From assembly GCA_051362555.1 (NCBI GenBank), contig CM120643.1:24556848-24620847 (forward strand): DNA of 64,000 bases. Direction: 5' to 3'. Position 1 is the stretch's first letter, and the number at the start of each line of letters is the position of its first letter. A program made the translations under genes and the position numbers. Below, piece by piece: positions 8,108 to 57,138 of the stretch. The notes beneath the pieces were generated by a model. It searched no databases and was not told the DNA's origin. It worked only from the letters and a program-made list of their open reading frames with translations. This stretch comes from Lingula anatina. Its lineage: Eukaryota; Animalia; Brachiopoda.

Positions 8108-8445
8108 TATAGTCACTGTTTAGTGCAGACAGCACAGGTATGTCTCCTTATGGTCATTGTAAAATGTGGATCTTATTAACCATATTGAATATTATTGTCA
8201 CAACCGGTATTTAGAGCAGACAACACAGGTCAGTCTTGGTATGGTCACTATTTAGTACAGGCAACACAGGTCAGTCTTATTGTGATGGTCACTATTCAGT
8301 AAAGACAACACAGGTCAGTCTTATTGTTATGGTCACTATTCAGTAAAGACAACACAGGTCAGTCTTATTGCTATGGTCACTATTCAGTAAAGACAACACA
8401 GGTCAGTCTTATTGTTATGGTCACTATTTCGTACAGACAACACAT
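8108..8445. repeat. 44-bp tandem repeat derived from the last codons, stop and start of the 3'UTR
   Basis: Unit ATGGTCACTATTCAGTAAAGACAACACAGGTCAGTCTTATTGTT at 8241, 8285, 8329, 8373 and 8417, plus degenerate copies to the left. Confidence 0.85.
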
Positions 8446-9563
8446 GCTACTTCTCTTCCATCCACATATGGTGGACAGGGGAGGGAACCACATTTAACCT
8501 CAGCAGCATAGAACAGGCCACCATCTTTGTTTTCATGACCCCCAGCTACCACTTCTGGAGCTTCATCAAGGCAGACAAACTCTGATCTCTGCAGTGTGTC
8601 ATGATCTGATACCAGGTATCCATTGTACTCTGTTGTCCACCCAGCTGGACATGTCTTCTTGGCTGGTATCATCACATGACTGGGCCGTGTTTGGGTGTAG
8701 CATACTGCACAGGGGGCATCATGCTGAATAAATTCCTGACCTCCTGTATTGGATGTTGAAAAAATATTAGATTTAATATGTTCATATTCTACACCATGTA
8801 TGTAAGAACCTAAATCTTGCCCTCCATCTTGGTATTTCCCCCACTCTGGTGTCTGTGGCAAACACAGGTAATTACTGCCTCCTCCAGTTTTGCTGTAATG
8901 GGATCCAGCAGATATCCCTGATATTAAAAAAGATAAAATGAATTTTTTTAGATTTAAACTAACTATATAGGTGTAAAATTTAAAATAAAAATGTATGAAT
9001 ATATTTAAATAATTATTATTATTATCTTGAAGGCAAGTAAAACCTCACTTTAAAGGCCTGAGTTTTTATTAATTTACCTTTGTACAAAAGCTTTGAATGC
9101 GTTGAACAAGTTGTTCTGCCCCAACGTGTGTACACTGCCCCACCATGGCTGGTATTGGCTGGTAGACCTAAAAACATACAGTAAATCTAGACAAACATGT
9201 TGTATACACTGCCCCACCATGGCTGGTATTGGCTGGTAAACCTGAAAACATACATTAAACATAGAGAACCATATCGTGAACACTGCTCCAACATGGCTGG
9301 TATTGGCTGGTAAACCCGAAAACATATATTGAACCTAGAGAACCATATTGTATGCCCATTATGGCTGGAAGTGCTCTTACACAAGATACCATGAAAATGC
9401 ACACTTTCAAAACAGACATCTTTATGATCAACTTAATGTTGCCCAGCAATCTTTAGCCCATTCATCAGTATAGCTCTCTTATAAGGGTAAAACCTTCAAT
9501 AAAATGGAAAAAAATGAATCTTAGAAGTCAGTGCAGAGAAATGTAAAACGGATCCCCCCCCCC

Positions 9564-9596
<33 letters not shown>

Positions 9597-11994
9597 AACA
9601 TAATCAAAAGGAAGAGATTCATGTAGTTAAAGCACCAGACAAACCTGTAGGTGGCACTCCTATCTGAGCTCCAATTTGTCCCAGCATTTGTTTGAGTGTA
9701 TCCAATGTTAGAGATCCTGGGTCCCCTTTAGGTCCAGGTGGTCCCTTGGGAAATTGAACAAAAATATTGGAAATGCTATTATTACACATAGGAATGTATA
9801 TTAACAGAATTATAAACTGGTGATATCAATTATAGATCTGTTATCTATGAGTTGATTATTTGGAATAACATGTCAAGAACATTTTCAGAAGTATATCTCA
9901 TGGAACACTTAATATTTCCCATTTTTCATGATATTTTAAAAAAGTAGAAAACAGTTTAATGTGTATTTTTTGATATTTCAAGAATTGGATATCATAGTTC
10001 ATAGATTACATTATTGTCTAATTTTAAATCAAAACTAATATAAATATTCAACCATAATTTTGAATTACAAAACTAGCATAGATCGATATAGCCATCATGC
10101 TAAGTTTTACCTGTATTCCATCTCTGCCATCTTTACCATCTCTCCCAGGTAATCCCTGTGGACACTGAACACTGCTCCCTGAGGAATTGACAACTGAAAA
10201 GTATATATTAGTAATACATTTTTTTATTTCTTTGGATAATAACTTTGTCTTAGTGAAATCAATAAATGTATTTCATAATTACATATCAATTCTGACAGTT
10301 ACCTTACCATTCACAAGACATCAGTCAGTCATCTCAACTTGGGGCTAAACATAGCCCAGAGGTGACCTCACCCAAAATCAATCATTGTATAATACTAAGT
10401 AGTACAGGTAAATTGAAATATAATTTAAAATATCATTTTGTATCTTATATTCCACTGTTACTAGTAAGGGATTGTTCTTCATGATATTTGATATTTAAAA
10501 TGAATGTTTTATTGTTTAGAAAGATAGGGTATCATTGGATAAGACCTTATGTGGTAGCAAAATGTTTTCTGTTTTAAGTTATCATATAGAGTGCAGACCT
10601 TTACCATTACCTTGTAGTGGTGACTGATATCCAAGCAGTCCAATGATTTGCTTGAGACTGTCTACTGTTAAACCTGGGTTCTGTGGATTAATTAAGGTAT
10701 TTGTAAGATAAAGCTATGAAGTGTTCACATTTTGTCATTTCCCACAATAAGAACAAAAAATGGTATGTAGTGTTAAAATTAAATCATATCTACATAAAAA
10801 AAAAATATGTAAGATATTTATTTGGTATTTTTTCACTTTCAATTCCAACTTATTATGTCACATGTCCATGGATTCATACTGAAGAAGCAATTGTTAAATA
10901 TTATTACTAACAAAAATTATTTGTTATAGCACGTGATAGTCATGTAATTTATCACAATTGAAGATGAGTTAAATTACCCAAATTCCATCCTTCCCATCCC
11001 TGCCATCTTTTCCATCCTTACCATCCCTGCCATCTCTTCCTGGGGGTCCTTGGGGTCCTTGTACACAGCCTGAACTTACCACTAAAATACATATATTTTG
11101 ATGCTGAGTGTCAGCTTAGGGATACATGCTAATGTTATCTGTCATGTAAATATTTTCATATAGAAGGCAGGATTGTCCCACTTTGATATAAAATTTTTTC
11201 TGACATTGTAGGTGAATAGTTACCCCAACTTGAGGCCACAGCAATAACAGTCATAATCAGCAGATATTGCTTAAATACACCTACTACTTCTTATATTGTG
11301 GAACAACAGAAATAAGCATCCTATTAAATTGGGGTTTTATCATTCCCCATAATTAAATTTGGGGCATATTCCTTTAAACCTGCAGTATATTTTATCAAAT
11401 TTTGTGATATTTGGTTTTGTACCATTTTTGATTAATCAAAACTGGTGCAAAAAGTTAATATAAGACTTTAACAAATAATATTGTAACTTACAGTTTCCTT
11501 GCTGCACTTGTCTCTTGGTAATAGAATGGTGAAAGTTTGTTGCATTTTGCTCAGGAACAGTGACTGTTTGTGAATCTAGCTTCAACTTGATTTTCTGAAT
11601 ATCTGACTGATTAAAAAGATTTGATTAGTCTTTTACTATCATTTTTAATATATGGAAATTAAATTATGTAGGCTGTTAAAGATGTTAATTTTTGTTATTT
11701 GACTACAGTGAAGAGAGACAATTAAGGGATCAAACTATTGGAAAATTCACAATCATACAATTAGGCAAGTTGTGAAGCACAAAATACCTTAAGTTGTCTG
11801 TTTTCCTGTTTTACTGCAGCAACCTCCACCTCCAACCTTTTCAGGAATGCTATTTCTCGTTCTTGCTTGTCCAGTCTTTCAACCAGTTTCATCAACACAT
11901 CATTATTGACATCAGCATGATGTTGTAAAGTTGATGCAGAGACAGTAGCAACAATAAGGGCAGTGAATACATGAAAATACATGATGTGCAGCAT
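8424..11994 (-). CDS. Short-chain collagen C4-like (spongin-related) secreted protein, paralogue B1, 8 exons
   Basis: Exons 11788-11994, 11492-11606, 10978-11081, 10611-10680, 10111-10193, 9645-9744, 9078-9167, 8424-8917, all GT-AG and phase-compatible. Signal peptide, coiled coil, ITKR|Q, Gly-X-Y, NC1 (YTRWGRTTC..GGGSNYLCLP..PCAVC..MIPAK..CPxGW..LPCPPY..CVVCTK). Confidence 0.88.
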
Positions 11995-13936: not shown

Positions 13937-16900
13937 CTATTTAGTACAGACAACACATGCTAGTTCTCTTCCATCCACATATGGTGGACAGGGGAGGGTG
14001 CCACATTTAACTTCAGCAGTGTAAAACGAGGCAGCAATTTTGTCCTCATGGCCTCCAGCTACCACTTCTGGAGCTTCATCAAGACAGACAAATTCAGTTC
14101 TCGCATAGTCATCACGATTTGATACCAGGTATCCATTGTACTCTGTTGTCCACCCAGCTGGACATGTCTTCTTGGCTGGTATCATCACATGACTGGGGCG
14201 TGTTTGGGTGTAGCATACAGCACAGGGGGCATCTTGGTCAGGAAGATTATGACCTCCTGTATTGGACTTTGAAAATATGTTACTTTTAACATATTCATAT
14301 TGCACACCATGTATGTAAGAACCTAAATCTTGCCCTCCATCTTGGTATTTCCCCCACTCTGGTGTCTGTGGCAAACACAGGTAATTACTGCCTCCTCCAG
14401 TTTTGCGTTCGTCAGTTCCAGAAGCTATCCCTAAAGATAAAGTTATACAATTTAGACATTTTTAATTGTAAGCTTAGTTGCCTATATTTTTATGCAGAGG
14501 AAGATCAAGTATAAAATCTTTTAAAATGTGGTTCATGTACGGTATACCGAGTTATCCCTAGAAAACCTATTTGTTACAACATGCATTTTACCTTTGTACA
14601 AAAGTTTTGAATGTGTTGAACAAGTTGTCCTTCCCCAATGTATATACACTGCTCCACCATTGTTGTTATTGGCTGGTAGAGCTGAAAACATACAGAAAAC
14701 TATATTGTGAACACTACACTGCTACACGTATGTCTGGTAGTGCTTTAAGACCAGATAACATAAAAATGTACATTTAAAAACTGACGTCACACTCATTTTT
14801 GCACAACAACCTTTGTTACTTTCTATCAGGGCCACAGATTGATTTTTCACAGAATATTCACAGGTACATGTATGCCTTTAGATAAATAGACGGTCATTTA
14901 CTTATCTGATCCTGTAATGAAATCTCTAGGCTGATTACATGTCTGGTAATTGTTTGCATAACTGTCCAGGCTAAGTCACTTTGACAGCAATGAAGACGGT
15001 TATATTAATTGCTCTGATTTAAATCACTTGTTCTTTTGTGACAAATAAAAGTAGCCCCTTCTGAATACTGTAGCTTGTTACAACATATTGAAAATAATTG
15101 AGAAATCTCCTTAGTAGCTCCCTACAGAGCTGGTACAATTCCGCAGTGACGAGAAGGTTAAAATCATACTAAGCCCAGAAAATGAGAAAGAATTGTACGC
15201 TGTTGGTAAATACATTCAGAGGGCAACTTCCAAAAGAAATGAGCATCTGCCACACTGAAGTAGCCTCATCCTGCTATATATTATATGAACCATAAGTATG
15301 GCACATTAGATACATATAGCTATAAGCCTATCAATGAAAATGTGTGTTCCCTCAGTGTATTGAACTATTTACAATTGTAATAAGTATTTTAAACAACGTA
15401 TACACTGTTTTTAATAATCTTAAACACTGTATTAGTAGTAATCCATAGTGATGTATAACTATTTATTTATTTATATATTTGTAGTATAGAGGGCTAACAA
15501 ATGTAACTGTCACATTTAATGCTCGAATAAATTATTATTATAATTCCATCTGTGTGCGGGCAGATTTAACTGCTTCCATCTGGCCAAAAATCACACAGTG
15601 GTTTTTCCAATTTTTCCCTATATAATCTGCCACCCTGGTAGAGGGTAAACCTTTGTAACATTTATCAGAACAACTGTCTGTTTGCTAAAAAGTAAAACCT
15701 TCGATAAAATGGAAAAAATGAATTTGTTAATGAAGTCAGTGGACAGTAACATACAGAACAATTAACAAAACTAAAAGGAAGAGGTTCACATAGTTAAAGC
15801 ACCAGACAAACCTGTAGGTGGCACCCCTTTCTGAATTCCAATTTGTCCCAGCATTTGTTTGAGGGTATCCAATGTTAGAGATCCTGGGACCCCTTTAGGT
15901 CCAGGGGGCCCCTTAGAAAATAAAAAAATATCAATTATGAATTATTTTTATGAATTAATTACTAATTATTTATATGTTTTTACAAAAACAAGAACAAAAA
16001 TTATAATGTTGTAATTAAATTATATCTACATCAATATATATTTATTTGGTATTTTTTTACTATCGATTCCAACTTATGTATGTCACATCCCAAGCCTTCA
16101 TACTCTAGAAGCAATTTTTAAATATTGTATAATTATTATAATTATATATGATGGCATACAATTTTATTCAAGAAAGAAAATTTATTCTAAAAGTCATGGA
16201 ATTTGTCATAAGAGAAGATCAGTAAAGTTACCTGAATACCATCTCTGCCATCCCTGCCATCTCTTCCTGGGGGTCCCTGGGGTCCTTGTAGACAGCCTGA
16301 ACTTACCACTAAAATACAGGACACAGTGGTTTGAATTGCTGGTTTTTTAAACAGGATACAGATGCTGCACGTTGATACTCAACCATAAAATGCCTATTGT
16401 CACATATAATATTATCTAAAATCAATATATCCTCTTGATATATCTTATCAGGAATTGTATAAAATGTCAGTTCAAGACTTCTAACAAATGATAGCTTACA
16501 GTTTCCTTGCTGCACTTGTCGCTTGGTAATAAAATGGTTTCCATGGTGAAGGTTTGTTGCATTTTGCTCATGAACAGTGATAGTTTGTGCATCAAGCTTC
16601 AACTTGATTTTCTGAATATCTGACTATTTAAAAGATTACATTAGTCTTTATACTATAGATCTGTCATTTTCAGCATATGGAAATTGTTCAACATAGGTTG
16701 GTAAGATGTTAATTTTAGTGATAGTTAAGATATACCACGTGGGAAATTAACAATGTTGGGGTTGGGCGGAATTTCAAATACAAAATACCTTCAGTTGTTT
16801 GTTTTCCTGCCTCACTGCAGCAACCTCAGCTTTCAGTTTTTTCATCTCTTGTCCCTGCTTGTCCAGTCTTTCAACCAGTTTTATCAACACGGCATTACTG

Positions 16901-16980
16901 GCACTGTCATGATGATGTCTTAAAGTTGATGCAGAGACAGTAGCAACAAAAAGAGAAGTGAATAGTACATGAAAATACAT
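13937..16980 (-). CDS. Short-chain collagen C4-like paralogue B2, 6 exons
   Basis: Exons 16789-16980, 16500-16623, 16232-16308, 15812-15911, 14592-14681, 13937-14430. Open frame. Lacks the two middle exons present in B1. Confidence 0.87.
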
Positions 16981-17724
16981 GATGTACACCCGTCTGTAGC
17001 AGCCAAGATGCTAACCTGGGCGAGGCAAGGAAAACTCTTAAATTGCTGAAGCCATGATTTATCAAGTGGACATGTCAGATAATTACAATGTGGATCTTAG
17101 AAAGTTGGGTTTCTACAAATATTTGACCAGCGATAGTATAAGGGAAGCAGCTAATATTTCTTCTATAAATCATGTGTTACGTTTGACAACCAGTCACAAA
17201 TTCAATCATAAACCTCTCACTCCTCAGTTTTCCTTAACTAAAACTGTATACTCTTTAAGCTTCAGTGGTCACCACCAGGGACTCTTTTCTTGACATTTAG
17301 CATTTCCCTATTCATTTATACGTTAAGTTCATAAGTAACTTAAATTTCTCAGGAACATAGAAAAGGTGCAATGTGTCTTTAAGCACTTAACACTACATCT
17401 CTCTAATGTCTTATAAAATTTATAATGTAATGTGCATATGTTAACTATGTTATGATAATTTTTCTTGTCTTCCATGAGCTGCTTTTTAGTTATTTGTCTG
17501 ACTAGTTGATCTTTTTCAATGTACGTCAGTTCCTAAACTTTTTGCAATATTTATATTTTCGTTAATTTCTGTATGACTACCATTTTTTCATAACGAGCAG
17601 TTCATTTAATAACATTTTTCTAGATTAAAAGGACAGTATTATATTTCAATTAAAATATTAACAGTAGGAACAATAATTCTTTCTTCAATGAACTCCACTG
17701 TATGATGCTCCTGTGTCCTTGCAG

Positions 17725-18115: not shown

Positions 18116-18149
<34 letters not shown>

Positions 18150-20797: not shown

Positions 20798-20841
<44 letters not shown>

Positions 20842-23683: not shown

Positions 23684-24694
23684 TTTGGGACAGTCAAGAT
23701 TATGACTTGGGCGAAGCTTAGAAAAGCTCTTTTATCAATTGATTGGCCCTTAATTTATCAATTGGACTTGTCAAACACAGACAGTGTGGGGCTTAGTACC
23801 AATATTTGATTAATGATATTTATAGGTAAGCTGTTGTCTATTTTTTCTATTAATCTCTCTTGACAATCAGTAGACAGTGACACATTCAATCACGAACCTC
23901 TTACTCCTCAGTTCTCCTGAATTAAACTCTTTAAAGTAGATTACGTGGGCACCACCAGGTACTCTTTACTCAAGATTTGACAGTTCATTTATCTTTTCAA
24001 TTTAATATAGCTTACCGATATCGTTCCGGTGCATAGAAGCACTTCATTTTGGTCCTTTAATATCAGATAAGATTTGCATTTTGTCCCTTTTACATTTTGC
24101 CCAAGTTCCAACTCTTTTCCAGTGTATGTCATGCAACTGAACTCTCAGAAACAGTTTTTTCAGTTCCTACACTATTTGCACTATTCATTTCTTAGTTTAT
24201 TCCTGTATTAACTTACTGTTTTCTTAAAAATTTTTATTACAAATGTTTTTCTAGATGCAAAAGATAATGTTGTTTCAGCAAGCTTTGTAATTTAGCAATT
24301 AGAAACGTAGTATGTTATTTTTCAAATATTCAAAAATTATTCTAAAAAATATTAAAATAATAGCAAGCAACATATATAGATGTCAGTGAAAAATCACATG
24401 GCTAGAAATTTAACCCTGGGAGACCATCTCTGCCATCTTGTCCATTTTTTCATCTTTTCCTGGTGGACCTTGACGGCAACAATTACTGCCAACTGAAAGT
24501 GGAATTCCCAGTTGGTTCTGTTAAGGAAGTTCTTCAAATAATCTACCACAGCATCTAGAATGCACGGCTGATTTCATTACGCCAAAGACACCTAACAGTT
24601 GTTCGTTTATGCCCCTTTTTTAAGAAAGTATTTAGCTTGTAAGTCACACAAGCCAAGCAACTAAACTCCTACTTCACAAAAACTGTTGGGTTAG

Positions 24695-25318
24695 TGGCCA
24701 GTCACAAATCAGTTGCGATGCGTCGGGGATGGGTAAAACCCGGGAAATTTGAACAAAATCTTGAGACAGATCTCACGATTTTGCACCCGTCGGAGGCGCT
24801 CTCCGGACGCCTGCGGGTTGTCGCAGATTTTTTCTACCACACCCGTCGCGGTCCCCAACTTTGAACTTAAATTTTAAGATTGCTCGCAAGATTTTTCACC
24901 CATTTTGGGCATCCCAGACACAATCTCCGATGACCTACGATGCCCTCTGATTAATCGGAGGCGTCCTCCGAATATTCTGAGACTAGTACAGTACAGTGTA
25001 CAGAGAGAAATACAGATGACCGAGGTCAGAAAACCCTCCTTTTCCCCCTCATATATACCCAGGGGGGAAAATTACAAGAAAAGACGCTCGCAGATATCGT
25101 CTCCGATTGCATCGGAGGCGATCGGAGACGATATCTGCGAGCTAACCCCACGATTTTTCGACAAAACCCGGTCAAAATCCTTGAAAAAATCTCAGACAAT
25201 GTGACTGCTCCACTTTTACTAGGATTATTGCTAGGATTGTTCAAGGATTCTTTATTTTCTACGACGACCCTCGGCTAAAACTAATCCCCGACAGATCGCC
25301 GACATTGTGACTGGGCCA
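24695..25318. mobile_element. Non-autonomous TIR element
   Basis: TGGCCAGTCACAA ... TTGTGACTGGGCCA inverted ends. GC-rich interior. Interrupts sequence that is contiguous in paralogous introns. Confidence 0.6.
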
Positions 25319-25320
25319 TT

Positions 25321-25799
25321 GGGGGCCGTAGCGATAGTCCGAAGGTTCAATAGTCCGAAGGTTCATTGGTCCGAAGGTTCAATGGTCCGAATGTGCATTG
25401 AAGGTTCATTGGTCCGAAGGTTCGATAGTCCGAAGGTGCATTGGTCCGAAGGTTCGATAGTCCGAAGGTGCATTGGTCCGAAGGTTCGATAGTCCGAAGG
25501 TTCGATAGTCCGAATGTAGGCCCGCTGTATAAGTGTATAGTGAATTACATGTACAGGGGCGGATCCAAGATTATTTGAAGGGGTGTCCGCGGATGCAAAG
25601 CCCCCACCCCCCTTGGTGTAGGATCTGGGGCCCGCTAAAGGGCCCCGAAAATTGTTGGTGTCTCAAAATGACCACCTATTTATCTAGAGACACATCTGTG
25701 AATATCTGTAAAAAATCTATCAGTCGCCCTGGTAGAGGGTTTAAAAGTTAGGTCTGCACGGGCAAAAATAATGTCAATACTAGCATATTACATTAGTTA

Positions 25800-25845
<46 letters not shown>

Positions 25846-26095
25846 AGATCTTGATGTTTTTCATGGGATTGGAAGTTGACGATATTTAACTGCTAAGGTT
25901 TATTTTGTAAAATCAAATGGAAATTTTCTCACGAGTCACGAGTGTATCTACTTTTTGCATAGTACGTTTTTCTTCGTTTAAATGAATTTGTTACAAAGAC
26001 AGCATTTTTGGTGTTGTTCATCAGATTAGAAGTTTAACTGTTTTAGAATATTTCAACATGTTCAAACTGCCTTCTCACTTGTATTTTACGTTTAA

Positions 26096-26130
<35 letters not shown>

Positions 26131-27520
26131 ATAGGCCCACCGGGTTGATATGGCGTTGTCAAATTTCTATTTCAGATTATAAACGTTTCAGCACCTTCAG
26201 TATTGCTGGGGAAGAGGGGGTGGAATTAAATATGTATTACTATTTGTGGATATTTGGATATTTGAGCATATTACTGTATTCTGATACAATTTTTAAGTTT
26301 AAAGCCCTAGTAAGGGAAAAGTTTGTTTTCGTAAATGCTCGTAATTTTTGTTTATATGCCAAGTTTACACTCCAGTTAATTTATCCTCATCCCTATGAGT
26401 AATACAATACTGCTGGCGGAACGGCTGTTTTTTCTTTTCTTTTTTTTTTTTTTTTTTTTTGGGGGGGGGGGGGGGGTATGGGAGTGGGCTGTGCGAACAA
26501 CAACATAGTTTGTTTGGAAATGCAATTATTCTATAACTTTTACATAATTTAAGAATTTAAGTAATGTGTAGGTTAGAATAATTTGAATTCTAATCATAGT
26601 ATCTTAAGACATCGTAAGAAACTCAAAGTAATTGTACCGACCTATTCATCCAGTCTTGAAAAGTCGATTATCACTGATTTTTTACGAAACTGTTGACTTG
26701 ATATTCATGAGTACAGGGTGGACGTGAACCGCAATCGGTCTCTAGAAAAACGGGACTCTCCCGCAATCCAAAAAATTTCGTAATTGAAACACCCGTTTTT
26801 TTCTTTTGAAAATAATCAGTGTGCGCTTAAAGGTAGCCTTGATGGAGCGTAAAACCACTTTTATCAGTTTCTTATACAATTCAAAAATAATACACAGGCC
26901 ATTCGATTAAATGTCATTATAAGCGTCCTCTCATTTTATGCGTTCCAATCTTTATTCAATATTTCATGTGAAACATGTATGGTGTTCATGAGTTGGAAAG
27001 GGTAGCCATTGCATATCCCCAAACTTCCCCACATTGTAAAGAGTAGTTCACGGAAACAATACGACCTATATGGATAATTTTCACGTGCGTTTCGGTCGCA
27101 CTCAAAACGAAATGATAAAGATTCTAGAAGCTGAGTTCACACGAAAGTTAATCACCCCCTAGCAGCTCCAGGATTGCTAATCTGATTGCATACAGTGAGA
27201 ATCCTGGTGGAGTTGGATCAATCAACGTAGAATGATAGTTTCGTTGGGAACGCACCCTTAGATTCCGTTTGTAATTATAATTCTTAAAATCGAAGAACAT
27301 CTTAAAATGTTTCGGACTATCGAACCTTCGGACTAATGAACCTTCGGACTATCGAACCTTCGGACTAATGAACCTTCGGACCAATGGACCTTTAATTTTC
27401 GGACTAATGAACCTTCGGACCAATGAACCTTTTTGTTGAAAATCTGATGAAAAATTTACGAATTTTCGGACCAATGAACCTTCGGACCAATGAACCTTCG
27501 GACTATCGAGACGCCCCCCC
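25321..27520. mobile_element. Foldback/MULE-like non-autonomous element with subterminal ~16-17 bp tandem repeats
   Basis: GGGGCCGTAGCGATAGTCCGAAGG left end and CCTTCGGACTATCGAGACGCCCC right end. Arrays of GTCCGAAGGTTC(A/G) at 25333-25515 and inverted at 27311-27508. Confidence 0.8.
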
Positions 27521-39995: not shown

Positions 39996-42900
39996 CTATT
40001 TAGTACAGACAACACATGCCAGTTCTCTTCCATCCACATATGGTGGACAGGGCAGGGAACCACACTGAGATTCAGCAGTTTGGAACAAGGCACCGTTTTT
40101 GTTTTCATGACCCCCTGCTACCACTTCTGGAGCTTCATCAAGGCAGACAAATTCTGTTCTCTGGTAAATGTCACGAGCTGATACCAGGTATCCATTGTAC
40201 TCTGTTGTCCACCCAGCTGGACATGTCTTCTTGGCTGGTATCATCACATGACTGGGGCGTGTTTGGGTGTAGCATACAGCACAGGGGGCATCATGATTAA
40301 AAACATCTTGACCTCCTGTATTGGATATTGAAAATATGTTAGGATTAACATATTCATATTCCACACCATGTATGTAAGAACCAGTACCTTGCCTTCCATC
40401 TTGGTATTTCCCCCACTCTGGTGTCTGTGGCAAACACAGGTAATTACTGCCTCCTCCAGTTTTGTCATGGTCAGTTCCAGCAGATATTCCTGATATAGAA
40501 TTATAAAAGCCATTTTTAAAGATTTTAATTACTCTTTAACCATAGATGTCAAATTCAAAATTATAAATATATATATATATATATAATTCAAAAATTTGTA
40601 TTATTATTATCATTAACATTGTTATAATTATTTTGAATAGCACTTTACCTTTGTACAAAAGCTTTGAATGTGTTGAGCAAGTTGTTCTGCCCCAATGTGT
40701 GTATACTGCCCCACCATAGCTGGTATTGGCTGGAAGAGCTGAAAACACACATTAAACCTAGAGAAACATATTGGACTGGTATTGCTCATACACCAGATAC
40801 CATATGAAAACTTACACTTTCAGAACAGACATCTTACACCCCATTTCCATAGATTAGATCGACCTACTTTAGATCGACCTAACTCCCTGGGGGTTCACGC
40901 TAAATAGCTGTCAGCCGGGCGGACATGAAAGTTAATTACCTCCTTACAGCTTGTAATAGGTGGGACGGACATTTAAGTCGGATTTTCTGGAAGTAATCTA
41001 GTGAGGCTCCCTGCGGGGATAGATCGATCTAAAATCTATGGGAATAGAGCCTAAATGATCAACTTACTAGTAATGTTGCACAATCTTTATCCAGTTAATA
41101 GCTGTCTCTTAACTAAAAAAAGTAAATCATTAAAAAAATGGATGAAAATTGAATTCACTAATGAAGTCCTATCAATGCAGTTAAAGTGTAGAAAGTATTC
41201 CCAAACTAACAGGAAGACATTCATGTAGTTAAAGCACCAGACAAACCTGTAGGTGGCACCCCTATCTGAGCTCCAATTTGTCCCAGCATTTGTTTGAGGG
41301 TATCCAATGTTAGAGATCCTGGGTCCCCTTTAGGTCCAGGCGGTCCCTTATAAAATTCAACAAAAATATTGAAACTGCTATTTCACAAAGGAACATATAT
41401 TATTACATATTTAGTATAAACTGGTGCATTGTCAATATATTTCAAGAAGTGGATGTCTTGGTCTGTAGATTGCATTATACTCTAATTTTCAATCAAAATA
41501 AATATAAATTTTTAATCATAATTTTGAATTACAAAACTACTGAATATATAGCCACCATGCAAAATTTTACCTGTATTCCATCTTTACCATCTCTCCCAGG
41601 TAATCCCTGGGGTCCCTGAACATTGCTCCTTGAGGAGTTGACAACTGAAAAATAAATCTCAGTGATAATAATAATAATTTCTTTGGATAATGATTAAGTC
41701 TTCTGGAAATCAATGTATTTCATAAACACACGTCACTTTGGACAGCTACCTCATCATTCACAAGGCATCATTCAGTCATCACAACTTTGGGCCAAGCATA
41801 GCCAAAAGGTGACCTCACCCAAAATCAATAAATGTATAATACTAAGTATAGTACAGGTAAATTGAAATATGAATTAGCATTTCATTTTGCATCTGATATT
41901 TTACTGTTACTACTAAGTGATTGTTCTTCATGGTTTTTGTCATATTTAAAAAGAAAGAAAAGGCATTATTTGATAAGACCTTATTTGGTAGCAAAATGTT
42001 TTCTGTTTTAAGCTATAATATAGAGAGCAGGCCTACCATTACCTTGTAGTGGTGACTGATATCCAAGCAGTGCAATGATTTGCTTGAGGCTGTCTACTGT
42101 TAAACCTGGGTTCTGTGGATTAATTTAAGATATTTGTAATAAGAAACAATGAAGTGTCCACATTTTGTCATTTCCCACAATGAGAACAAAAAAGGATAAT
42201 GTTGAAATTAAATTATATCTACATAAAAAAATTATATATGATATTTATTTGGTATTTTTTCACTATCCATTCCAACTTATGTATGTCACATGTCCATGGC
42301 TTTATACTCTAGAAGCAATTTTTAAATATTGTATAATTATTATAATTATATATGATGGCATACAATTTTATTCAAGAAAGAATTTTTTTCTAAAAGTCAT
42401 GCAATTTGTCATAAGTGAAGATCAGTAAAGTAACCTGAATTCCATCTCTGCCATCCCTGCCATCTCTTCCTGGGGGTCCCTGGGGTCCTTGTAGACAGCC
42501 TGAACTTACCACTAAAATAGAGGACACAGTGGTTTGAATTGCTGGTTTTTAACAGGATACAGATGCTGCACATTGATACTCAACCATAAAATGCCTATTG
42601 TCACATATAATATTATATAAAATCAATACATCCTCTTGATATATCTTATTAGGAATTGTATAAAATGTTATTTCAAGACTTCTAACAAATGATAGCTTAC
42701 AGTTTCCTTGCTGCACTTGTCGCTTGGTAATGGAATGGTTTTCATGGCGAAGATTTGTTGCATTTTGTTCAGGGACTGTGATAGTTTGTGCATCAAGCTT
42801 CAACTTGATTTTCTGAATATCTGACTAATTTAAAAGATTAGTCGCTTTTTACTATAGATATGTCATTTTCAGTATGTGGAAGTTGTTGAAAATTGGCTGT

Positions 42901-43181
42901 TAATGATGTTAATTTTTATAATTGATGATAGTTAAGATATACCAACTTATGGGAAATTTACAATGATGGAATTGGACAGAATTTCAAGTACAAAATACCT
43001 TAAGTTGTTCATTTTCCTGCCTCACTGCAGCAACCTCAGCTTTCAGTTTTTTCATCTCTTGTCCCTGCTTGTCCAGTCTTTCAACCAGTTTTATCAACAT
43101 GGCATTCATGTCATGATGATGTTGTAAAGTTGAAGCAGAGACAGTAGTAACAAAAATGGCAGTGAATACATGAAAATACAT
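39996..43181 (-). CDS. Short-chain collagen C4-like paralogue B4, 8 exons
   Basis: Exons 42999-43181, 42701-42824, 42435-42511, 42043-42112, 41571-41644, 41247-41346, 40649-40738, 39996-40489. Open frame. Confidence 0.88.
40836..41051. mobile_element. MITE, inverted copy of 36305-36519
   Basis: Reverse-complement similarity. Absent from the paralogous B5 intron at about 60738. Confidence 0.72.
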
Positions 43182-44365: not shown

Positions 44366-44439
44366 ATAGACCACCTTAACTCAGCCACTTATTTTATCTT
44401 TCCACATGTGAAAGAAATGTAACCTTTGTGTCCTTGCAG

Positions 44440-49339: not shown

Positions 49340-52300
49340 TTATTTAGTACAGACAACACATGCTAGTTCTCTTCCATCCACATATGGTGGACAAGTGAGG
49401 GAACCACATTTAACTTCAGCAGTGTACCACAAGGCACCCCTTTTGTTTTCGTAACCGCCAGCCACCACTTCTGGAGCTTCATCAAGGCAGACAAACTCTG
49501 TTCTGTGGTGGACGTCAAGCTCAGATATCAGGTAGCCATTGTACTCTGTTGTCCACCCAGCTGGACATGTCTTCTTGGCTGGTATCATCACATGACTGGG
49601 GCGTGTTTGGGTGTAGCATACAGCACAGGGGGCATCATGGTAGCGAAACTTCTGACCGCCTGCATTGGATGTTGAAAATATGTTTTCAAAAATATACTCA
49701 TATTCCACACCATGTATGTAAGAACCAGTACCTTGTCCTCCATCTTGGTATTTCCCCCACTCTGGTGTCTGTGGCAAACACAGAAAATTACTGCCTCCTC
49801 CAGGTTGGTCCCAGAAAGTTCCAGCCGATATTCCTAATAAAAAAGTGAAGTCAAATTTTATTTGCTAGCATAGGTGCCAACGACGAAAAGAAATACAGAC
49901 AAATATTACTTAGGAAATGTAATGCAGTAGATTAATGTTTAGAAAAGGCATGTGTTTCAAGTATTTACCTGCATACAAAAGCTGTGAATGTGCTGCACAG
50001 GTTGTTCTGCCCCAACGTGTGTAAACTACCCCACCTTGGCTGGTAGTGGCTGATGAGCCTGAAACATACATTTAACCTAAGGAACCTTGTTGTTAGGCCT
50101 GTAGCCAGGGCAGCTTGGGGGTTTGAACCAACCGTCCTTTTTGCCAGGTAAAAGGTACACTCTTGGTAGAATTTGATTGGTTTCATGGTAAAAAAATCAA
50201 CTTAGAAATAAGAACTGCCCCTTGGGAAATGGTGGCTACAGGGCTGATTGTATACTGCCCCACCAAGGCTGGTATTGGCTGGTAAACCTGAAAACATATA
50301 GTAAATCTTCAGAACCACATTGTATACACTGCCCAACCATGGCTGGTATTGGCTGGTAAACCTGAAAACAGTATAAACATTAAGAACCACACTGGAAAAT
50401 GCTGGGGCTGATTGTATACCCTGCCCCACCCCCCTCCCATATGACTGGTACTGGCTGGTAGACCAGCAAACATTCATTAAATTTTGAGAAACATATTGTT
50501 AACACTATTCCACCACAGTTGGTATTGTATGGGGTATCAGTTCAATCTCATCTCCCAAGCTTATTCAGACAATCCCCCTCCCCACAATCCCCCCATCCAT
50601 TTGGTGAAATAAAAAAGTTAGTTACTTCCTAGCTTGCCACACAATTAAGCTGATTACTTTGACTGCTCTTAAGCAAGAATCCCTGCAGAGATAGCTAGAT
50701 CAGTCCTGCTTTATTCTGAATTCTCCCTTACGGAACCCTTGTACCTATCATTTCTATTTAGAAAAGACTCATTTATCAATAAAGAGATAAAAAGGGCAGA
50801 ATGAATGAATTCATTGTACGTTAATGTAGAGTATATTTTTTTCAACTTAAAGACAAAATTGACAAAAACGTAAAGGGCAATTAAAGAGCATATGACATTA
50901 GAGTTATTAGACAAACCTGTTGTAGTTGGCATGCCAATCTGAACTCCAATTTGCCGTAGCATTTGTTTCAGGTTGTCTAATGTTAGAGAAACTGATTCCC
51001 CTTTTGGTCCAGGTGGTCCCTTAAAATATCCAATGTATGAAACATACTTAGAGCGCATTTTCAACGAATTAAGCCAGGCTTTACAAAGCCGGTGACCTAA
51101 AAATGGCGGACGTACATGAAAGAAAAACCGCCTAATCTTTTAATAGTCTCTCCGCCTCCCCACACGTCGTCCCTGCGGGGTACAGTAATTAAATCGCGTC
51201 TCCGTTCGCCATGCGGAAGCTACCTGAGAAATATTAAGTGCGCATGCTCATCAGTTAAACTCGTGGTGAAGAAAGCATGGCGGCTGAAGGCGATCGAAGG
51301 AAAAAAGCTCTTCTGTTCTATTATCTTTGAAAACAGAGACGAAAAAGGAATAATTTGGCCCGTAGAGCAGCAATGAATCGACTGTCTACGGGGATAATAT
51401 CACCAGAGATATTCACGGAAATATTAATGTTCGGAGCCGAGATTTAATTACTGTAACCCGCAGGGATGACGTGTGGGGAGGCATGTGAGAGGCGGAGAGA
51501 CTATTAAAAGATTAGGCGTTTTTTCTTTCATGTACGTCCGCCATTTTTAGGTCACCGGCTTTGTAAAGCCTGGCTTAATTCGTTGAGAATGCGCTCTTAG
51601 CCTATTAGCTTCTATTACATTTAGACTGGGTTCCCTTGCTAGCTCGATCCATCTGAATCAGTCTAACTCCCTGAGGAGTCTCACTAAATTGCCATCAACT
51701 AACCAGCTTACAAGGCATGACAGACATTTAAGCTGGTTAAGTTGATAACAATTTAGTGAGATTCCCCAGGGAGATAGATCGTTCCAAATATCTGTGGGAA
51801 TTAATGATCCCTAAGAAACCTACATTGTACTATATGGTTACTGCTGTTACAATTATGTGCATCATCAGATAGATTAATTTTGCATACTAAGACAATTTGA
51901 ACGTTTATCTCAGGATAATCTATTTATTAATCAAATGTAATATATTTTCATGATAATTGAAGGTTTGAACAAGATGCAAAGTGTAAAAAATTATCAGTAC
52001 ATAGGTTACATGACTAACTGAGTTTGAATTATTATAATTGGTCCTAATTTTTAACCTACAGTGTACATCAAATCTGAGACATGTCTCTCCATTATAAAGC
52101 TAGGGAATAACCTTGCTTTTATTACATGTAGAAAAAGTTTTTTTATATCCTGTTCACACAAATATCAGATAACTCATAGTATTACGTGTATGTAAAGGAT
52201 TATTCTAATGGCTTTATATCTGTTTATAATCAACTTGTTTATGCCATAAGTATGAATCTTTTTGCTCTATCACCAGGCATGCTTTTTATAAAATTATTTT

Positions 52301-53415
52301 TTAGGATTATCATATATAATTTGTTTGCAAAATTAACTTATATAACTGTACATATTTTTAAATGGAAAAAGCTTTTTATTCTTAAATGATATCATGCACA
52401 TAATCATTTGTAAATTAAATTTGGAAAATTAAGTAAACCTGGAATCCGTCCCTGCCATCTCTTCCTGGGGGTCCCTGGGGTCCTTGTACACAGACTGAAC
52501 TAGCCACTAAAATATAGGACACAGATATAAGTTGATTTGAATAACTGGTTTTCAACAATGAGACTGATGCTGTAAGCTGTCCCTAAACTATTAAGCATAT
52601 TTTAAAGATATAAGACAGCCAAAAGGTACTGCTGAAATACTGCTAGGGGAATAACAGAATAAATAAACATTTGAATAAACATTTGAATGTATACTTAGAA
52701 ATTGGAGTTTAATGCATCTTCACATTTTTTTATTAACATAGGAACATATACTTTTAGTTGCTTTTTTTTATCATGTTCAGCAATATTTCTCAGGTTATAT
52801 TGTCTAAAAATGGTGTAAACAAGTCAACATAAGACCTATTACAAATAATTTAGCTTACAGTTTCCTTGCTGCACTTGTCTCTTGGTAATGGAATGCTTTC
52901 CATGGTGAAACTTTGTTCTATATTTTTCAGCAGCCATGGTGGTTTGCCCATCAAGCTTCACCTTGTCTTTCTGAATATCTGACTAATTTGAAAGTGAAAG
53001 AAAAATTATAGTTTTAACTGGTCTACAGATATGTGGTTTTTAAGTCATGGGAATTGTAGAACTTAAATTTTTAATTATTGTGTTTGTTTTAACTATTCAT
53101 TGACATTTAAGTTAATTATTGGTGCAAACCACAATCATGCTGAGAGACAAAATTCAAAGCTCAAAATACCTTAAGTTGTTTGTTCTCCAGTCTGACTGCA
53201 GCAACCTCAGCCTCAAGTTTTTTCATTTTTTGTTCTTGTCTGTTTAGTTTTCTAACTAGATTTTTTATCTCTAGTTCTTGCCTGTCCACTCTTTCAACCA
53301 GTTTCATCAAAGCATCATTATTGACATCAGCATGATGTTGTAAAGTTGATGTTACTACTGTTATAACAGCAGCAGATACAATTAGAAATATTAACTTGGT
53401 CATGGTGTACACCAT
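49340..53415 (-). CDS. Short-chain collagen C4-like paralogue C, 6 exons
   Basis: Exons 53170-53415, 52859-52982, 52439-52506, 50917-51019, 49969-50058, 49340-49833. Open frame. Confidence 0.87.
50096..50245. mobile_element. Small MITE
   Basis: TIRs AGGCCTGTAGCCA / TGGCTACAGGGCT within an intron. Confidence 0.6.
51051..51596. mobile_element. Palindromic PIF/Harbinger-like MITE
   Basis: Near-perfect TIRs over 100 bp (GAGCGCATTTTCAACGAATTAAGCC...), TTA TSD. Confidence 0.85.
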
Positions 53416-54072
53416 AAATTGTAGGTAATATATACATGTATACAGTTGGTCTTTAACCTGGGTCTTTGTCTCAGACTAGCAGTTGATAATATTTGTGTGT
53501 TGTTTACATAAATAGATACATATGTATCACAAGACCAAGTTGAAACTCATGCCACCGGCCTTCATATGTTTGTTTGACACAGTTTGATATGAAACCAAGG
53601 TTATAAACTAGTTTTTTCGCATATCTCTTAAGTCTACATGTACATGTGTTGTGCACATTCAGTATGGCCTGAAAATTATTTTTATCTCCAAGTTTAATCC
53701 AATTAAAATAACCAAAAATTATTGTACTTTATGGCTATTTTATATATTACTCAGACACAAGTGTGTATCAAAAGTATATTATGTTTTCTTTTATTCACTT
53801 TTCACAAAAAAACTTACAACCAAAACCAAGTCATTTGCCTTATTTATTAATTTGCTGTTAAAATCAATAAAGTTGATAAAATGCTATTGGTGTGAAGCAC
53901 TGGATGTAAAGCAAAACATGAAATGAAAAAGCATATTTTAATAATTACCCGGTACCTATCACCATATTTCTTGGAAGTGCCACTTGAAATTCAACATGGA
54001 CAATTTTTATGCATGTGTCAGTTTGTATGCAATTTGAAAAATCACAACAGGTCAGTCATTATGTTATGGTCA

Positions 54073-55864
54073 CTATTTACTACAGACAACACAGGCCAGT
54101 TCTCTTCCATCCACATATGGTGGACAGGGGAGGGTACCACATTTAACTTCATCAGTATGGAACAAAGCACCATTTTTGTTCTCCTGGCCCCCAGCTACTA
54201 GTTCTGGAGCTTCATCAAGGCAGACAAACTCTGTTCTCTGGTATTTATCATATTCTGATACTAGGTATCCATTGTACTCTGTTGTCCACCCAGCTGGACA
54301 TGTCTTCTTGGCTGGTATCATCACATGACTGGGGCGTGTTTGGGTGTAGCATACAGCACAGGGGGCATCATGCTGACCAGGATTCTGGCCTCCTGTATTG
54401 GTTGTTGAAAATATGTTTGAGTAAATCCTCTCATATTCCACACCATGTATGTAAGAACCAGTACCTTGCCCTCCATCTTGGTATCTCCCCCACTCTGGTG
54501 TCTGTGGCAAACACAGGTAATTACTGCCTCCTCCAGTTTGGGTCCAGTAAGTTCCGGCTGATATCCCTGAAAAAGTCCATAAATTTTTCATTGTCATAGG
54601 GGCCAAAATTGAAAAGAAAACTTAAGTACAAGTGATTTACTTATCTTTGGACACATGTTTATAAAAGGCATGTGTTTCAAGTATTTACCTGCATACAAAA
54701 GCTGTGAATGTGCTGCACAGGTTGTTCTGCCCCAACGTGTGTAAACTGCTCCACCTTGACTGGTAGTGACTGGTAGACCTGAAAACACACATTAAACCTA
54801 TGAGTCAAATTGTAAACACTGCTCCAACTCCAACCTTGTGGACCCTGAGGACCTTGTGGGCAGCAAAGACTGCCAACCAAAAGTGGAGTTATCAGTTGGT
54901 TCTGTTTAGGATGTGCTTACTTCAATTTGAACTTCAAATATCTACCACAGCAAAAGCTGTAAAATGCAGAGCTGCTTTCATTTTGTCATATGTACATGAA
55001 ATCAGTTCAGTTATTCTCTTTTTTAGATACTGAGCTTGTTAGTTACATAACCAATGCTAGTAATCTCCTACTATATACTGTTGACCCATGCAGCATCTTA
55101 CATATGACCCAAGATTAAATATTATACTCACGGCTGCCAAGTACTTGTCTTTTGGTTAAGTAATGGGTTTTGTTATCATCATCATTTGAGTACTGGAAGG
55201 TAGGGTTTTCAGTGTTTGATGTCAGTTCTTGCAGTTTAAGGCTAATTTCCTGTATCTTGACCTGAAATTAGGTATCTTTATATCTGTAGATTATAAATTT
55301 AAAGATATTCATGAGCATCTCTTTTCAGACTCTACTATTTCTTATTTTATAATAAAATCTTAAATTTTTTGCTATTTTCAAAATTCTGCAACGATGAAAT
55401 CATCTTGATTAAGATTTTTTATTGCAATTCAGTAAGCAGTCTCTGTTCTCATTTGTTTCTGACAGTTGAAATTCATGCTAGGATTAAGATATCCTTTATA
55501 CACATATACACACACACACAGCTAGAGCAATATTATATAATTATACAATAAGAACGTATATAGCTCTAGCTCTGTTGCCTATGTTTTCTACCTTCAAGTT
55601 CTCATTTTCCCTTTTGATTGTGTGAACATCTGCTTCCAATTTCTTCAACTTGGAAATTTCTACTTTAAACCTGCTATTTTCCTCCCTCAGCATTTGGCTT
55701 CCATGTTTTAGTTGGATTATCTCTTGTTCTTGTCTGTCTAGTCTTTCAACCAGTTTCATCAATGCATCATCACTGACTTCAACATGTTGTGCATTTGGTG
55801 TCATTGCTGTCATAACAACAGCAGTTATAATGAGAAACATACTCTTCACCATGGTGTATGCCAT
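54073..55864 (-). CDS. Paralogue A4: predicted collagen-less form (signal, coiled coil, KR|Q, NC1)
   Basis: Exons 55592-55864, 55132-55261, 54689-54778, 54073-54566 join in frame. The collagen exon is only a remnant with a mutated acceptor (about 54835-54877). Confidence 0.65.
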
Positions 55865-57138
55865 TACAGTGATATGTCTATGTAATGTATCACCCTATTC
55901 TGGGTCCCTGATGTTAAGCTTAAATATGATAAGTTGATGTTTATATAAAGAGATCTTCAGTAGTTTGTTTGACACATTTTGATAAAGCTTTAAACTGTGA
56001 ACTTCCAAGGTGATCTTTTTAATGTATATCCCTAATCCAAACGTGTTGTACATAATAACATGTTGAATAATTACATAATTGTATTAAAATAAAGAAAGAA
56101 AGAGAAAATATAACAAAAATTCTGCTCTTCAAAAGTTACTTTATTTACTATGCAGACACAAATCAACTAATCAAAAGCATTTTATTGTAATTGGTATCTT
56201 TAATTCAATATTCATGAATTAACCAAAAACCTACAGAATAGATGTATTTTATATCATTTAAAATTTTTTGCTTACTTAACTAATTTGCTGCTGAAAATTG
56301 AATAGGCATTGCCTATGGTACAAAGCCAAATAAAAATGGAACACATGTATCTTTTGATTAGTAAATTAGTAATATTGTAGGAAATAACACATTTAAGTTC
56401 ATCAAAGGCTATTCCTAAGGTCATTTTATCAAAAATTAGCAAAAACAGGCCATCTTTCTCGGATCCTACTCACAGATTATTATTATATTCATTCAACATA
56501 TATATTAACTGTTTAGTACTGACAGCACACCTTATGGTCATTTTTAAGTGTCAATATTATGAACCACATTTAATCTTCTGCACTATTTAGTACAGACAAC
56601 ACAGGCCAGTTCTCTTCCATCCACATATGGTGGACAGGGGAGAGAACCACACTTAGCTTCAGCAGTGTAGAACAAGGCACCGTTTTTGTCCTCATGGCCT
56701 CCAGCTACCACTTCTGGAGCTTCATCAAGGCAGACAAACTCTGTTTTATGGTTACCATCATGATCTGATACCAGGTATCCAATGTACTCTGTTGTCCACC
56801 CAGCTGGACATGTCTTCTTGGCTGGTACCATCACATGACTGGGACGTGTTTGGGTGAAGCATACAGCACAGGGGGCATCATGCTGAATAAATTCCTGACC
56901 TCCTGTATTGGTTGTTGAAAATATATTAGTCCTGACATTCTGATATTCCACACCATGTATGTAAGAACCTAAATCTTGCCCTCCATCTTGGTATTTCCCC
57001 CACTCTGGTGTCTGTGGCAAACACAGGTAATTACTGCCTCCTCCAACTTTGTTGTAGTAGGTTCCAGCAGATATCCCTGATATAAAATTATAAAAGCCAT
57101 TTTTAAAGATTTTACTCATAACCATAGATGTCAAATTC

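What the first reader, a model, noticed from the sequence alone, without database searches (positions are those of the whole stretch)
8424..57076. Array of spongin-like short-chain collagens with CDR-like hypervariable patches in an almost invariant NC1 head
Seen: eight NC1 exons (8424, 13937, 20270, 36645, 39996, 49340, 54073, 56583) are nearly identical over long blocks, even at synonymous sites (e.g. DAPCAVCYTQTRPSHVMIPAKKTCPAGWTTEYNGYL). They differ radically at about six short patches, listed in the same order. P1: HYSK/DERK/YYSQ/YWTQ/DHDK/FWDQ/YWTQ/YYNK. P2: DL or GT. P3: HIKS/YVKS/RIYS/SIYS/YVNP/YIFE/RIYS/NVRT. P4: QEFIQ/HNLPD/QNFQQ/QNFQQ/QDVFN/QKFRY/QNPGQ/QEFIQ. P5: DHDTLQ/NRDDYA/DLDVHH/EYDNHH/ARDIYQ/ELDVHH/EYDKYQ/DHDGNH. 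P6: NKDGGLFY/DKIAASFY/NKRGALWY and others. The patches are rich in Y/W/H/F/D/R. Established: this family is usually treated as a structural matrix collagen. Inference: here it behaves like a diversifying ligand-binding repertoire (innate immune or allorecognition lectin-like), analogous to mollusc C1qDC and FREP families but with a collagen-IV-related NC1 head.
Basis: partly seen in the sequence, partly recalled or inferred. Interest (0 to 1): 0.9.

Follow-up and report, generated by a model that had tools for sequence, protein, structure and literature searches.

The report
Short collagens with shuffled variable heads
A lamp shell (Lingula) carries eight tandem short-collagen genes whose heads are nearly alike except at six short, highly variable patches that are swapped between copies, likely a selected, variable binding surface for microbes in a protein family usually treated as structural.

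Summary
Eight minus-strand NC1 last exons of spongin short-chain collagen (SSCC) genes sit in a tandem array. The nearest proteins are from Lingula anatina (one matches a copy at 192 of 193 residues). Six copies are intact, two probably broken, and one is spliced without collagen. Replacement divergence is 0.37 in the patches and 0.045 in the framework. Gene conversion is clear (PHI p=0.0005), and patches recur in different copies. Better evidence for selection: silent divergence falls from 0.29 beside hypervariable sites to 0.03 far away; none of 17 neutral simulation settings reproduced the pattern; and the same positions vary in coral and tubeworm paralogue sets. By homology the patches likely lie on the face collagen IV uses for trimer-trimer docking; no trimer model was available. 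No ligand, tissue or immune data exist. Best reading (0.52): a conversion-shuffled repertoire of secreted binding heads for microbes. Rivals: relaxed loops (0.2), a self or partner code (0.16), adhesion (0.1). New variant of a known family.

The parts
8424..11994 (-). G1, intact 8-exon gene, 420 aa: signal-like N-terminus, coiled coil, TKRQV, two Gly-X-Y runs of 9, NC1 (exon 6 at 9078-9167, exon 7 at 8424-8917)
   Evidence: GT-AG sites, no internal stop
8889..8900 (-). Patch P1 in G1 (head codons 36-39); pseudo-symmetric twin of P5
8811..8816 (-). Patch P2 in G1 (codons 64-65); twin of P6
8769..8780 (-). Patch P3 in G1 (codons 76-79)
8724..8738 (-). Patch P4 in G1 (codons 90-94)
8589..8606 (-). 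Patch P5 in G1 (codons 134-139); codon 137 has 7 different residues in 8 copies
8508..8531 (-). Patch P6 in G1 (codons 159-166)
13937..16980 (-). G2, intact 6-exon gene, 358 aa, one Gly-X-Y run of 10; head matches RefSeq XP_013380289.1 (P0174) but for one residue
20270..23683 (-). G3, intact 8-exon gene, 414 aa, Gly-X-Y runs of 8 and 9; head matches XP_013399412.1 (P0001) at 192 of 193 residues
36645..39271 (-). G4, probable pseudogene: 4-base insertion in the signal-peptide exon, 6-base insertion in exon 7; identical to G5 over codons 162-192
39996..43181 (-). G5, intact 8-exon gene, 403 aa, Gly-X-Y runs of 6 and 9
49340..53415 (-). G6, intact 6-exon gene, 374 aa, one Gly-X-Y run of 8
54073..55864 (-). 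G7, collagen-less chain, 328 aa: exon 2 is spliced straight to exon 6 in frame
   Evidence: (19 reads in run X13 carry the exon 2 end next to exon 6)
56583..61805 (-). G8, probable pseudogene: exons 1-3 deleted, LINE in the last intron, 5 private framework replacements; flanks 0-9% different from G5, exon 7 patch windows 15-19%
6049..7460 (-). G0, 5' exons of a further copy with a stop in exon 3; no NC1 exon inside the window
24408..28222 (-). Gx, decayed 5' exon fragments of a further copy

Best explanation
This is a tandem array of spongin short-chain collagen genes in Lingula in which gene conversion homogenises the NC1 head and swaps six short variable patches between copies, and selection likely keeps those patches different because they are predicted to form the outward binding face of a secreted trimer that likely recognises varied microbes or parasites. 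Shown: the array, the exon structure, the mosaic patches, recombination, spliced expression of the family, and a collagen-less chain. Inferred: secretion (hydrophobic N-terminus by eye), trimer formation through the coiled coil and head, possible cleavage at the dibasic KR site, selection against conversions that erase patch differences together with faster replacement (toy simulation), and location of the patches on the face opposite the stalk (homology to collagen IV). Untested: the ligand. It would work like a collectin, ficolin or coiled-coil C1qDC protein with a collagen IV-type head, new specificities arising by shuffling patches among copies, pseudogenes possibly included.
For: Recombination: PHI p=0.0005, also outside the patches; G4/G5 identical over codons 162-192, global p=0.0005; nearest neighbour changes along the exon. 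Patch pN (0.33-0.52) exceeds silent divergence of the 5' exons (0.11-0.36) in 10 of 10 pairs tested. Forward simulation: 0 of 17 neutral settings gave patch difference near 0.59 together with far silent 0.05 and a threefold near/far ratio (best ratio 1.5); omega 2-3 at patches plus rejection of patch-erasing conversion reproduced all of these and the codon-model behaviour. Independent sets: patch distance exceeds that of family-variable control sites in 13 of 14 non-Lingula paralogue sets; 11 of the 20 most variable sites from 10 clusters fall in the patches, p=5e-5. 8 RefSeq Lingula heads vary at 27 of 29 patch sites and 7 of 38 control sites; RNA reads of other runs show further P1 and P5 variants. 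The head has two repeats with P1=P5 and P2=P6 (hhalign probability 93%); only collagen IV NC1 matches the model. At most 6-10 Gly-X-Y triplets per run in intact genes and none in G7, a poor fit to a fibre.
Against: No binding, tissue or challenge data. Omega is about 1 (1.02) when the fast class has its own rate; the M1a/M2a statistic drops from 52.5 to 6.8 with rate variation, and neutral fast sites gave 17-82 in 27 of 27 replicates. Patches were defined after seeing the data; with 20 independently chosen sites pN exceeds 5'-exon pS in only 8 of 10 pairs, by small margins. The gradient is not significant for 4-fold codons alone (rho -0.19, p=0.15, 56 sites). Only 2 of 14 non-Lingula sets (both Montipora) are individually significant, p=0.012; the sets are not independent; patch sites are variable family-wide (rho 0.38), as loose loops would be. 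The simulation is a toy on a small grid. The fold match is weak (Foldseek E 4.5e-4, TM 0.27; VIA Z 6.5, rmsd 6.3 over 160). Papers seen file the family under matrix, adhesion or shell.
Confidence: 0.52

Rival explanations
1. The patches are loosely constrained surface loops. Conversion homogenises the well-matched framework but stalls at mismatched loops, so loops keep the old divergence of the duplicates without any selection for diversity.
For: dN about equals dS in the patches (0.52 and 0.55); a fast class with omega at most 1 fits better than M2a by 5.8 log units, never seen in 34 replicates of true M2a; patch sites are variable across the family; independent-site pN is close to 5'-exon pS.
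Against: 17 neutral settings, 13 with a mismatch barrier, gave either low patch diversity or no homogenised framework. Patches do cross between copies as cassettes, so they are not sealed off. 30 of 59 family-variable sites are fixed in the array. Simulated selection plus conversion also makes the fast-neutral model win.
Confidence: 0.2
2. The variable face is a self or partner code. As in collagen IV, heads dock trimer to trimer, or choose their chain partners, and divergent patches keep paralogues, tissues, individuals or gametes apart.
For: By homology the patches fall where collagen IV NC1 trimers dock: residues 74-78, 175, 179, 187, 189 (PMC6527180 passages) and E40 beside R76 (PMC4878091 passages), with P1, P4, P5 anchored by HMMER alignments to Viking NC1. 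Selection against homogenisation is expected here too.
Against: Free shuffling of patches into new combinations and new variants in other animals would break fixed pairings. Lingula is solitary and spawns freely, so tissue allorecognition is not an obvious need (recalled).
Confidence: 0.16
3. The proteins are mucus, burrow-lining, pedicle or shell-matrix adhesives whose aromatic- and His-rich patches vary to bind different surfaces, food particles or matrix polymers.
For: Family members are up in the anemone pedal disc (PMC6626399 passages), called shell-related in oyster (PMC12040131 passages), gill-enriched in mussel (PMC4581086 tables) and mostly neuroglandular in Nematostella (PMC12549020 passages).
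Against: Abiotic targets do not change fast enough to explain continual new variants. The Lingula shell-proteome supplement held as text has no hit for five family terms (unnamed entries could hide one). The mussel gill list also holds C1qDC, apextrin-like and fucolectin transcripts.
Confidence: 0.1
4. The mosaic copies are an assembly artefact made by collapsing near-identical haplotypes or paralogues.
For: Near-identical blocks invite mis-joins; some RefSeq 'isoforms' on one scaffold may be chimeric gene models.
Against: Each copy has its own introns and flanks; G2 and G3 heads recur in an independent assembly; reads and contigs 99% or more alike to G7 exist in runs X13, X16 and X2.
Confidence: 0.02

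Closest known systems
Spongin short-chain collagens (SSCC; 'short-chain collagen C4-like')
   Same: Short Gly-X-Y region plus a two-repeat NC1 head with 10 cysteines; about 50% identity to amphioxus, coral, chiton and tubeworm members; family definition from PMC5395295 passages.
   Different: N-terminal coiled coil, only 6-10 triplets per run, one chain without collagen, and a conversion-shuffled variable head. None of my 10 paper searches showed such variation described; the papers seen treat the family as matrix.
Collagen IV NC1 (C4) domain
   Same: Only significant fold match (Foldseek E 4.5e-4; VIA Z 6.5-6.6); two internal repeats; shared cysteine and GY anchors.
   Different: No long helix or 7S region; 14-18% identity; no HSQ motif at the homologous place in repeat 2. 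The face that is a conserved docking surface in collagen IV is likely the variable one here.
Bivalve C1qDC proteins; collectins, ficolins, FREPs
   Same: Secreted, coiled-coil or collagen stalk plus globular head, tandem expansion, few hypervariable sites in a conserved fold (PMC6835236 passages; collectin, ficolin and FREP features recalled). RefSeq auto-names some Lingula relatives collectin-12 or macrophage scavenger receptor.
   Different: The head is not gC1q, C-type lectin or fibrinogen by Pfam; those RefSeq names likely come from the stalk. No ligand is known. 'Gene conversion' does not occur in the C1qDC paper.
Gene families under conversion plus diversifying selection (MHC, RHD/RHCE, plant R-gene clusters; recalled)
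   Same: Silent divergence peaks around variable functional sites; patches move as cassettes.
   Different: Soluble collagen IV-type head; function not established; only one haplotype analysed at DNA level.

Membership tests
Spongin short-chain collagens | C-terminal NC1 homologous to collagen IV NC1, built of two repeats | tested here: met
   hhalign of the halves, probability 93%, E 3.4e-7; fold searches return collagen IV NC1; hits named short-chain collagen C4-like at E below 1e-50
Spongin short-chain collagens | Ten NC1 cysteines (seven shared with collagen IV plus three; PMC5395295) | tested here: met
   10 invariant Cys in all 8 heads; which seven match collagen IV was not checked one by one
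Spongin short-chain collagens | Short collagenous domain before NC1 | tested here: met
   Runs of 6-10 triplets in G1, G2, G3, G5, G6 and 15 in G4; G7 is the exception, with none
Spongin short-chain collagens | No HSQ motif of collagen IV | tested here: met
   Absent where Viking has it in repeat 2; an HSQ in exon 6 of G4, G6, G7 lies after the first Cys, a different place
Spongin short-chain collagens | Forms a structural extracellular matrix | not testable with these tools
   No localisation data
Collagen IV | Long interrupted triple helix with 7S domain | tested here: not met
   Whole chains are 328-420 aa
Collectins, ficolins, C1qDC | C-type lectin, fibrinogen or gC1q head by sequence profile | tested here: not met
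   No such Pfam family among the 25 shown of 26 families for 119 alignment members; P0001 and four window exons match none
Collectins, ficolins, C1qDC | Such a head by fold | tested here: inconclusive
   Only collagen IV NC1 was listed; that C4 is classed with C-type lectin-like folds is recalled and was not confirmed
Collectins, ficolins, C1qDC | Signal peptide, oligomerising stalk, globular head | tested here: inconclusive
   Hydrophobic N-terminus, heptad-like segment and Gly-X-Y runs read by eye; no predictor run; trimer model not available
Collectins, ficolins, C1qDC | Binds microbial surfaces and opsonises or agglutinates | not testable with these tools
   Needs recombinant protein
Somatically diversified receptors (Ig CDR, FREP) | Somatic variants beyond the germline | not tested
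   RNA and DNA runs were of different samples
Conversion-plus-selection multigene families | Recombination among paralogues | tested here: met
   PHI p=0.0005; shared tract p=0.0005
Conversion-plus-selection multigene families | Selection at the variable sites | tested here: inconclusive
   Site models uninformative; silent gradient and simulations favour selection

The most novel reading that the evidence does not exclude
Spongin short-chain collagens are an overlooked, animal-wide class of soluble innate recognition proteins: a collagen IV-type NC1 head whose docking face serves as a variable binding site, diversified in parallel at the same loops in brachiopods, corals and tubeworms by tandem duplication and patch-shuffling gene conversion. 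This would add a fourth head type to the defence collagens and tie the basement-membrane fold to immunity.
Probability: 0.35. Interest if true: 0.88.

Novelty: new variant of a known kind. Interest (0 to 1): 0.62.

Why it matters
The function of SSCC proteins outside sponges is unknown; papers seen list them as matrix genes by name. A variable, shuffled, probably selected face makes the question testable: six intact heads differ mainly at 29 positions, so patch swaps can map specificity. If the ligands are microbial, brachiopods and corals have an unrecognised recognition repertoire. If the ligands are other heads, it shows how a collagen IV-type docking code diversifies. The locus also shows that a strong site-model result (omega 4.9) can be uninformative under gene conversion.

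Tried and rejected
No whole genome is held for this window, so copy number outside it is unknown. A profile search of protein representatives had not returned when I stopped, so family size is not given. Reads were laid on one copy only; expression of G1-G6 and G8 singly is open. Pfam has no model for the head. PDB sequence searches gave only weak Viking NC1 hits, E 0.24-0.36, and a galectin hit at E 0.055 that I reject as chance. The wide fold search listed 1 of 48,161 chains at Z 2 or more; other folds are not thereby excluded. An ESM Atlas ApeC cluster scored 0.80, within chance, and is a lead only. M1a/M2a and M7/M8 were rejected as proof of selection. My first intron distances (about 0.25) were near the shuffled baseline of 0.30 and were dropped; BLAST blocks gave 0.10-0.27 for 9 of 10 pairs, biased low. 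Mutually exclusive collagen exons were rejected once a spacer exon was found. Codon bias as the cause of silent identity is unlikely: invariant codons use mixed synonyms. A mutation hotspot was not simulated; the same protein positions varying in distant animals argues against it. Paper searches showed no report of hypervariable or immune SSCC heads; two searches were swamped by unrelated words, subscription journals are not covered, and Aouacheria 2006 and Exposito 1991 were seen only as citations. Searches of earlier findings returned nothing.
Full report
Observation. Each exon starts at an AG in phase 1 and ends at a stop. The codon table confirms every listed patch string. Variable codons cluster: 22 of 163 exon-7 codons have three or more residues, 18 in the patches, with 9 adjacent pairs against 2.8 by permutation, p=0.0005. 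Over 28 pairs pN is 0.373 in 29 patch codons and 0.045 in 157 others; pS is 0.388 and 0.161; codons 95-133 have pS 0.049. Patches are rich in Y, H, F, D, N and Q but not W or R.

Anatomy. The window holds eight genes with heads and two fragments. The plan is: exon 1, hydrophobic N-terminus and coiled-coil-like segment; exon 2, ending in TKRQV; one or two short Gly-X-Y exons, each followed by a short helix-like segment; exon 6 with the start of NC1; exon 7 with the rest. G1, G2, G3, G5, G6 and G7 give open spliced frames of 328-420 residues with GT-AG sites. G7 has lost its collagen exons. G4 has a 4-base insertion in exon 1; G8 lacks exons 1-3 and holds a LINE. Signal peptide, coiled coil and the KR cleavage site are read by eye, not predicted by a tool.

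Identity. The best of 367 hits is Lingula anatina XP_013399412.1, which equals the G3 head but for one residue; the next tier is short-chain collagen C4-like proteins of amphioxus, tubeworm, chiton and corals at about 50%. The AlphaFold2 model from 119 sequences has pLDDT 91. All 6 Foldseek matches at E up to 0.001 are collagen IV NC1, weak (TM about 0.27); VIA gives Z 6.5, rmsd 6.3 over 160 residues, the only one of 48,161 chains at Z 2 or more. With ten cysteines and a short stalk this meets the spongin definition in PMC5395295 (passages).

Expression. On G7 exons 6-7, 104, 203 and 427 reads were laid at 85% likeness from 12.4, 9.5 and 11.1 million records of three RNA runs; the intron is empty, the two stranded runs indicate the minus strand, and exon 6-7 joints are read. 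Only 0, 13 and 21 reads are 99% alike, so most come from other copies or alleles. Part of the exon 6 depth is from a more distant gene. Nineteen reads join G7 exon 2 to exon 6. Read ends show a P1 beginning NYD (31 reads) and a P5 THDNFH (8 reads), found neither in the window nor in the RefSeq heads (my hand translation). Tissues are not given.

Recombination. PHI on 71 informative sites gives p=0.0005 at three window sizes, and on the 32 outside the patches too. G4 and G5 are identical over codons 162-192 (global p=0.0005); G6 and G7 share a tract in exon 6 (p=0.04); the other 8 of the top 10 tracts are not significant. G5 and G8 differ by 0-9% in flanking 100-base windows but 15-19% in patch windows, and G8 shares P2 and P4 with G1. 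Among 13 close Lingula proteins retrieved, only the G2 and G3 heads recur; six other heads carry new patch combinations, though some RefSeq isoforms may be chimeric models.

Selection. My codon models give M1a/M2a 52.5, omega 4.9 at 8% of sites, M8a/M8 55. Against this: with overall rate variation the statistic is 6.8 (p=0.03), and a fast class with its own rate has omega 1.02. In bootstraps the observed 5.8-unit advantage of the fast-neutral model was reached in 0 of 34 true-M2a replicates, and neutral fast sites gave statistics of 17-82 in 27 of 27. So dN/dS cannot decide. Such a peak is the recalled signature of selection resisting conversion. In forward simulations (10 copies, 8 sampled, 5-8 replicates each) the target was patch difference 0.59, near 0.163, far 0.050, 15 codons with four or more residues. 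None of 17 neutral settings matched: one reached 0.71 but with far 0.27; the best near/far ratio was 1.5. Omega 3 with free conversion (4 settings) reached at most 0.47. Rejecting patch-erasing conversion alone (5 settings) reached 0.38-0.54. Both together (6 settings) gave 0.59-0.77; one gave 0.66, 0.15, 0.06, 13.7 and a fast-neutral advantage of -2.8 to 12.6, against 8.1 observed for exon 7. This is a small toy grid with patches fixed after the fact: it favours selection and does not prove it.

Other animals. I compared 14 non-Lingula sets: 10 clusters at 90% identity (at most 15 members listed each) and 4 species sets; rows under 110 aligned columns were dropped and duplicates merged. Patch distance exceeds that of 38 family-variable control sites in 13 of 14 (sign test p=0.0009, sets not independent); only the two Montipora sets are significant alone (p=0.012), Ridgeia p=0.055, and one set goes the other way. 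The 20 most variable sites from the 10 clusters include 11 patch sites, p=5e-5, mostly P1, P5 and neighbours. Loose loops could also do this, but 30 of 59 family-variable sites are fixed in the Lingula array.

Where the patches lie. The head is two repeats; P1 aligns with P5 and P2 with P6, so each pair should share a face. HMMER anchors put P1 near Viking residues 37-40, P4 near 99-103 and P5 near 146-151. In collagen IV, residues 74-78, 175, 179, 187 and 189 act at the trimer-trimer interface (PMC6527180 passages) and E40 contacts R76 (PMC4878091 passages). Placing P2 and P6 at 74-78 and 187-189 rests on my recall of the human chain. PMC8093946 passages added nothing on this. The inference is that the patches form the face opposite the stalk; it was not measured.

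What is known. Passages seen treat the family as matrix: primordial extracellular component (PMC5867623), pedal disc (PMC6626399), neuroglandular cells (PMC12549020), shell (PMC12040131), structural list (PMC13093298), tissue integrity in diseased sea stars (bioRxiv 2025.07.05.662347; its supplements were not seen), gill-enriched beside lectins in mussel (PMC4581086). The Lingula genome paper passages (PMC4595640) and its one supplement held as text do not name the family. Bivalve C1qDC genes are the closest working model (PMC6835236 passages). Ten searches showed no report of variable SSCC heads.

Verdict. The feature is real and a member of a known family behaving in an undescribed way. Conversion-driven shuffling is shown; selection for diversity is likely (about 0.75); microbial recognition is the most likely purpose (0.52) but untested. 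Interest 0.62.

Noticed in passing
window 2458-5357 (-): Ty3/Gypsy-like LTR retrotransposon frames (zinc knuckle, aspartyl protease, RT) just downstream of fragment G0.
   Followed up: partly
window 29673-35020 (+): BEL/Pao-like element (DUF1759, protease, RT fragment) whose terminal repeats hold GC-rich 64-base tandem arrays of 15.5 and 7.5 copies; the repeats are 98% alike over 707 bases.
   Followed up: partly
window 58205-60500 (-): Broken LINE with an RT fragment inside the last intron of G8, which is 3449 bases against 111-171 in the other copies.
   Followed up: partly
window 9127-9353, and upstream of exon 6 in G4 and G6: A 74-base tandem repeat duplicates the acceptor and start of exon 6, leaving partial pseudo-exons.
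   Followed up: no
window 8218-8444: 44-base tandem repeat, 5.2 copies, overlapping the G1 stop codon and 3' end.
   Followed up: no
window 38252-45019 against 54833-63692: A segmental duplication spanning the G4 5' end and G5 matches the G7 5' end and G8, so the array grew by two-gene steps as well.
   Followed up: partly
window 54234, run X10: Seven reads appear to join the end of exon 5 to the middle of exon 7, which would give a half head.
   Followed up: no
window 54721-54755, runs X13 and X16: Many reads from a more distant family member share only about 35 bases of exon 6, so other SSCC genes are expressed, as are expected from P0003 and P0167.
   Followed up: no
proteins P0131, P0129 and members (Montipora); P0077 and members (Ridgeia): Large paralogue sets, on one chromosome-length contig in each Montipora species, with strong variation at P1, P2 and P5; good targets for the same DNA-level tests.
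   Followed up: partly
protein P0054: A family member is labelled Salmonella sp. on a 982-base contig, probably animal contamination; left out of alignment A1.
   Followed up: no
window 63009-63314 (+) and 63559-63823: A short frame ending in a hydrophobic stretch with no Pfam match, and a 136-base duplication, in DNA repeated at 17712-18963 and 44427-45649.
   Followed up: no
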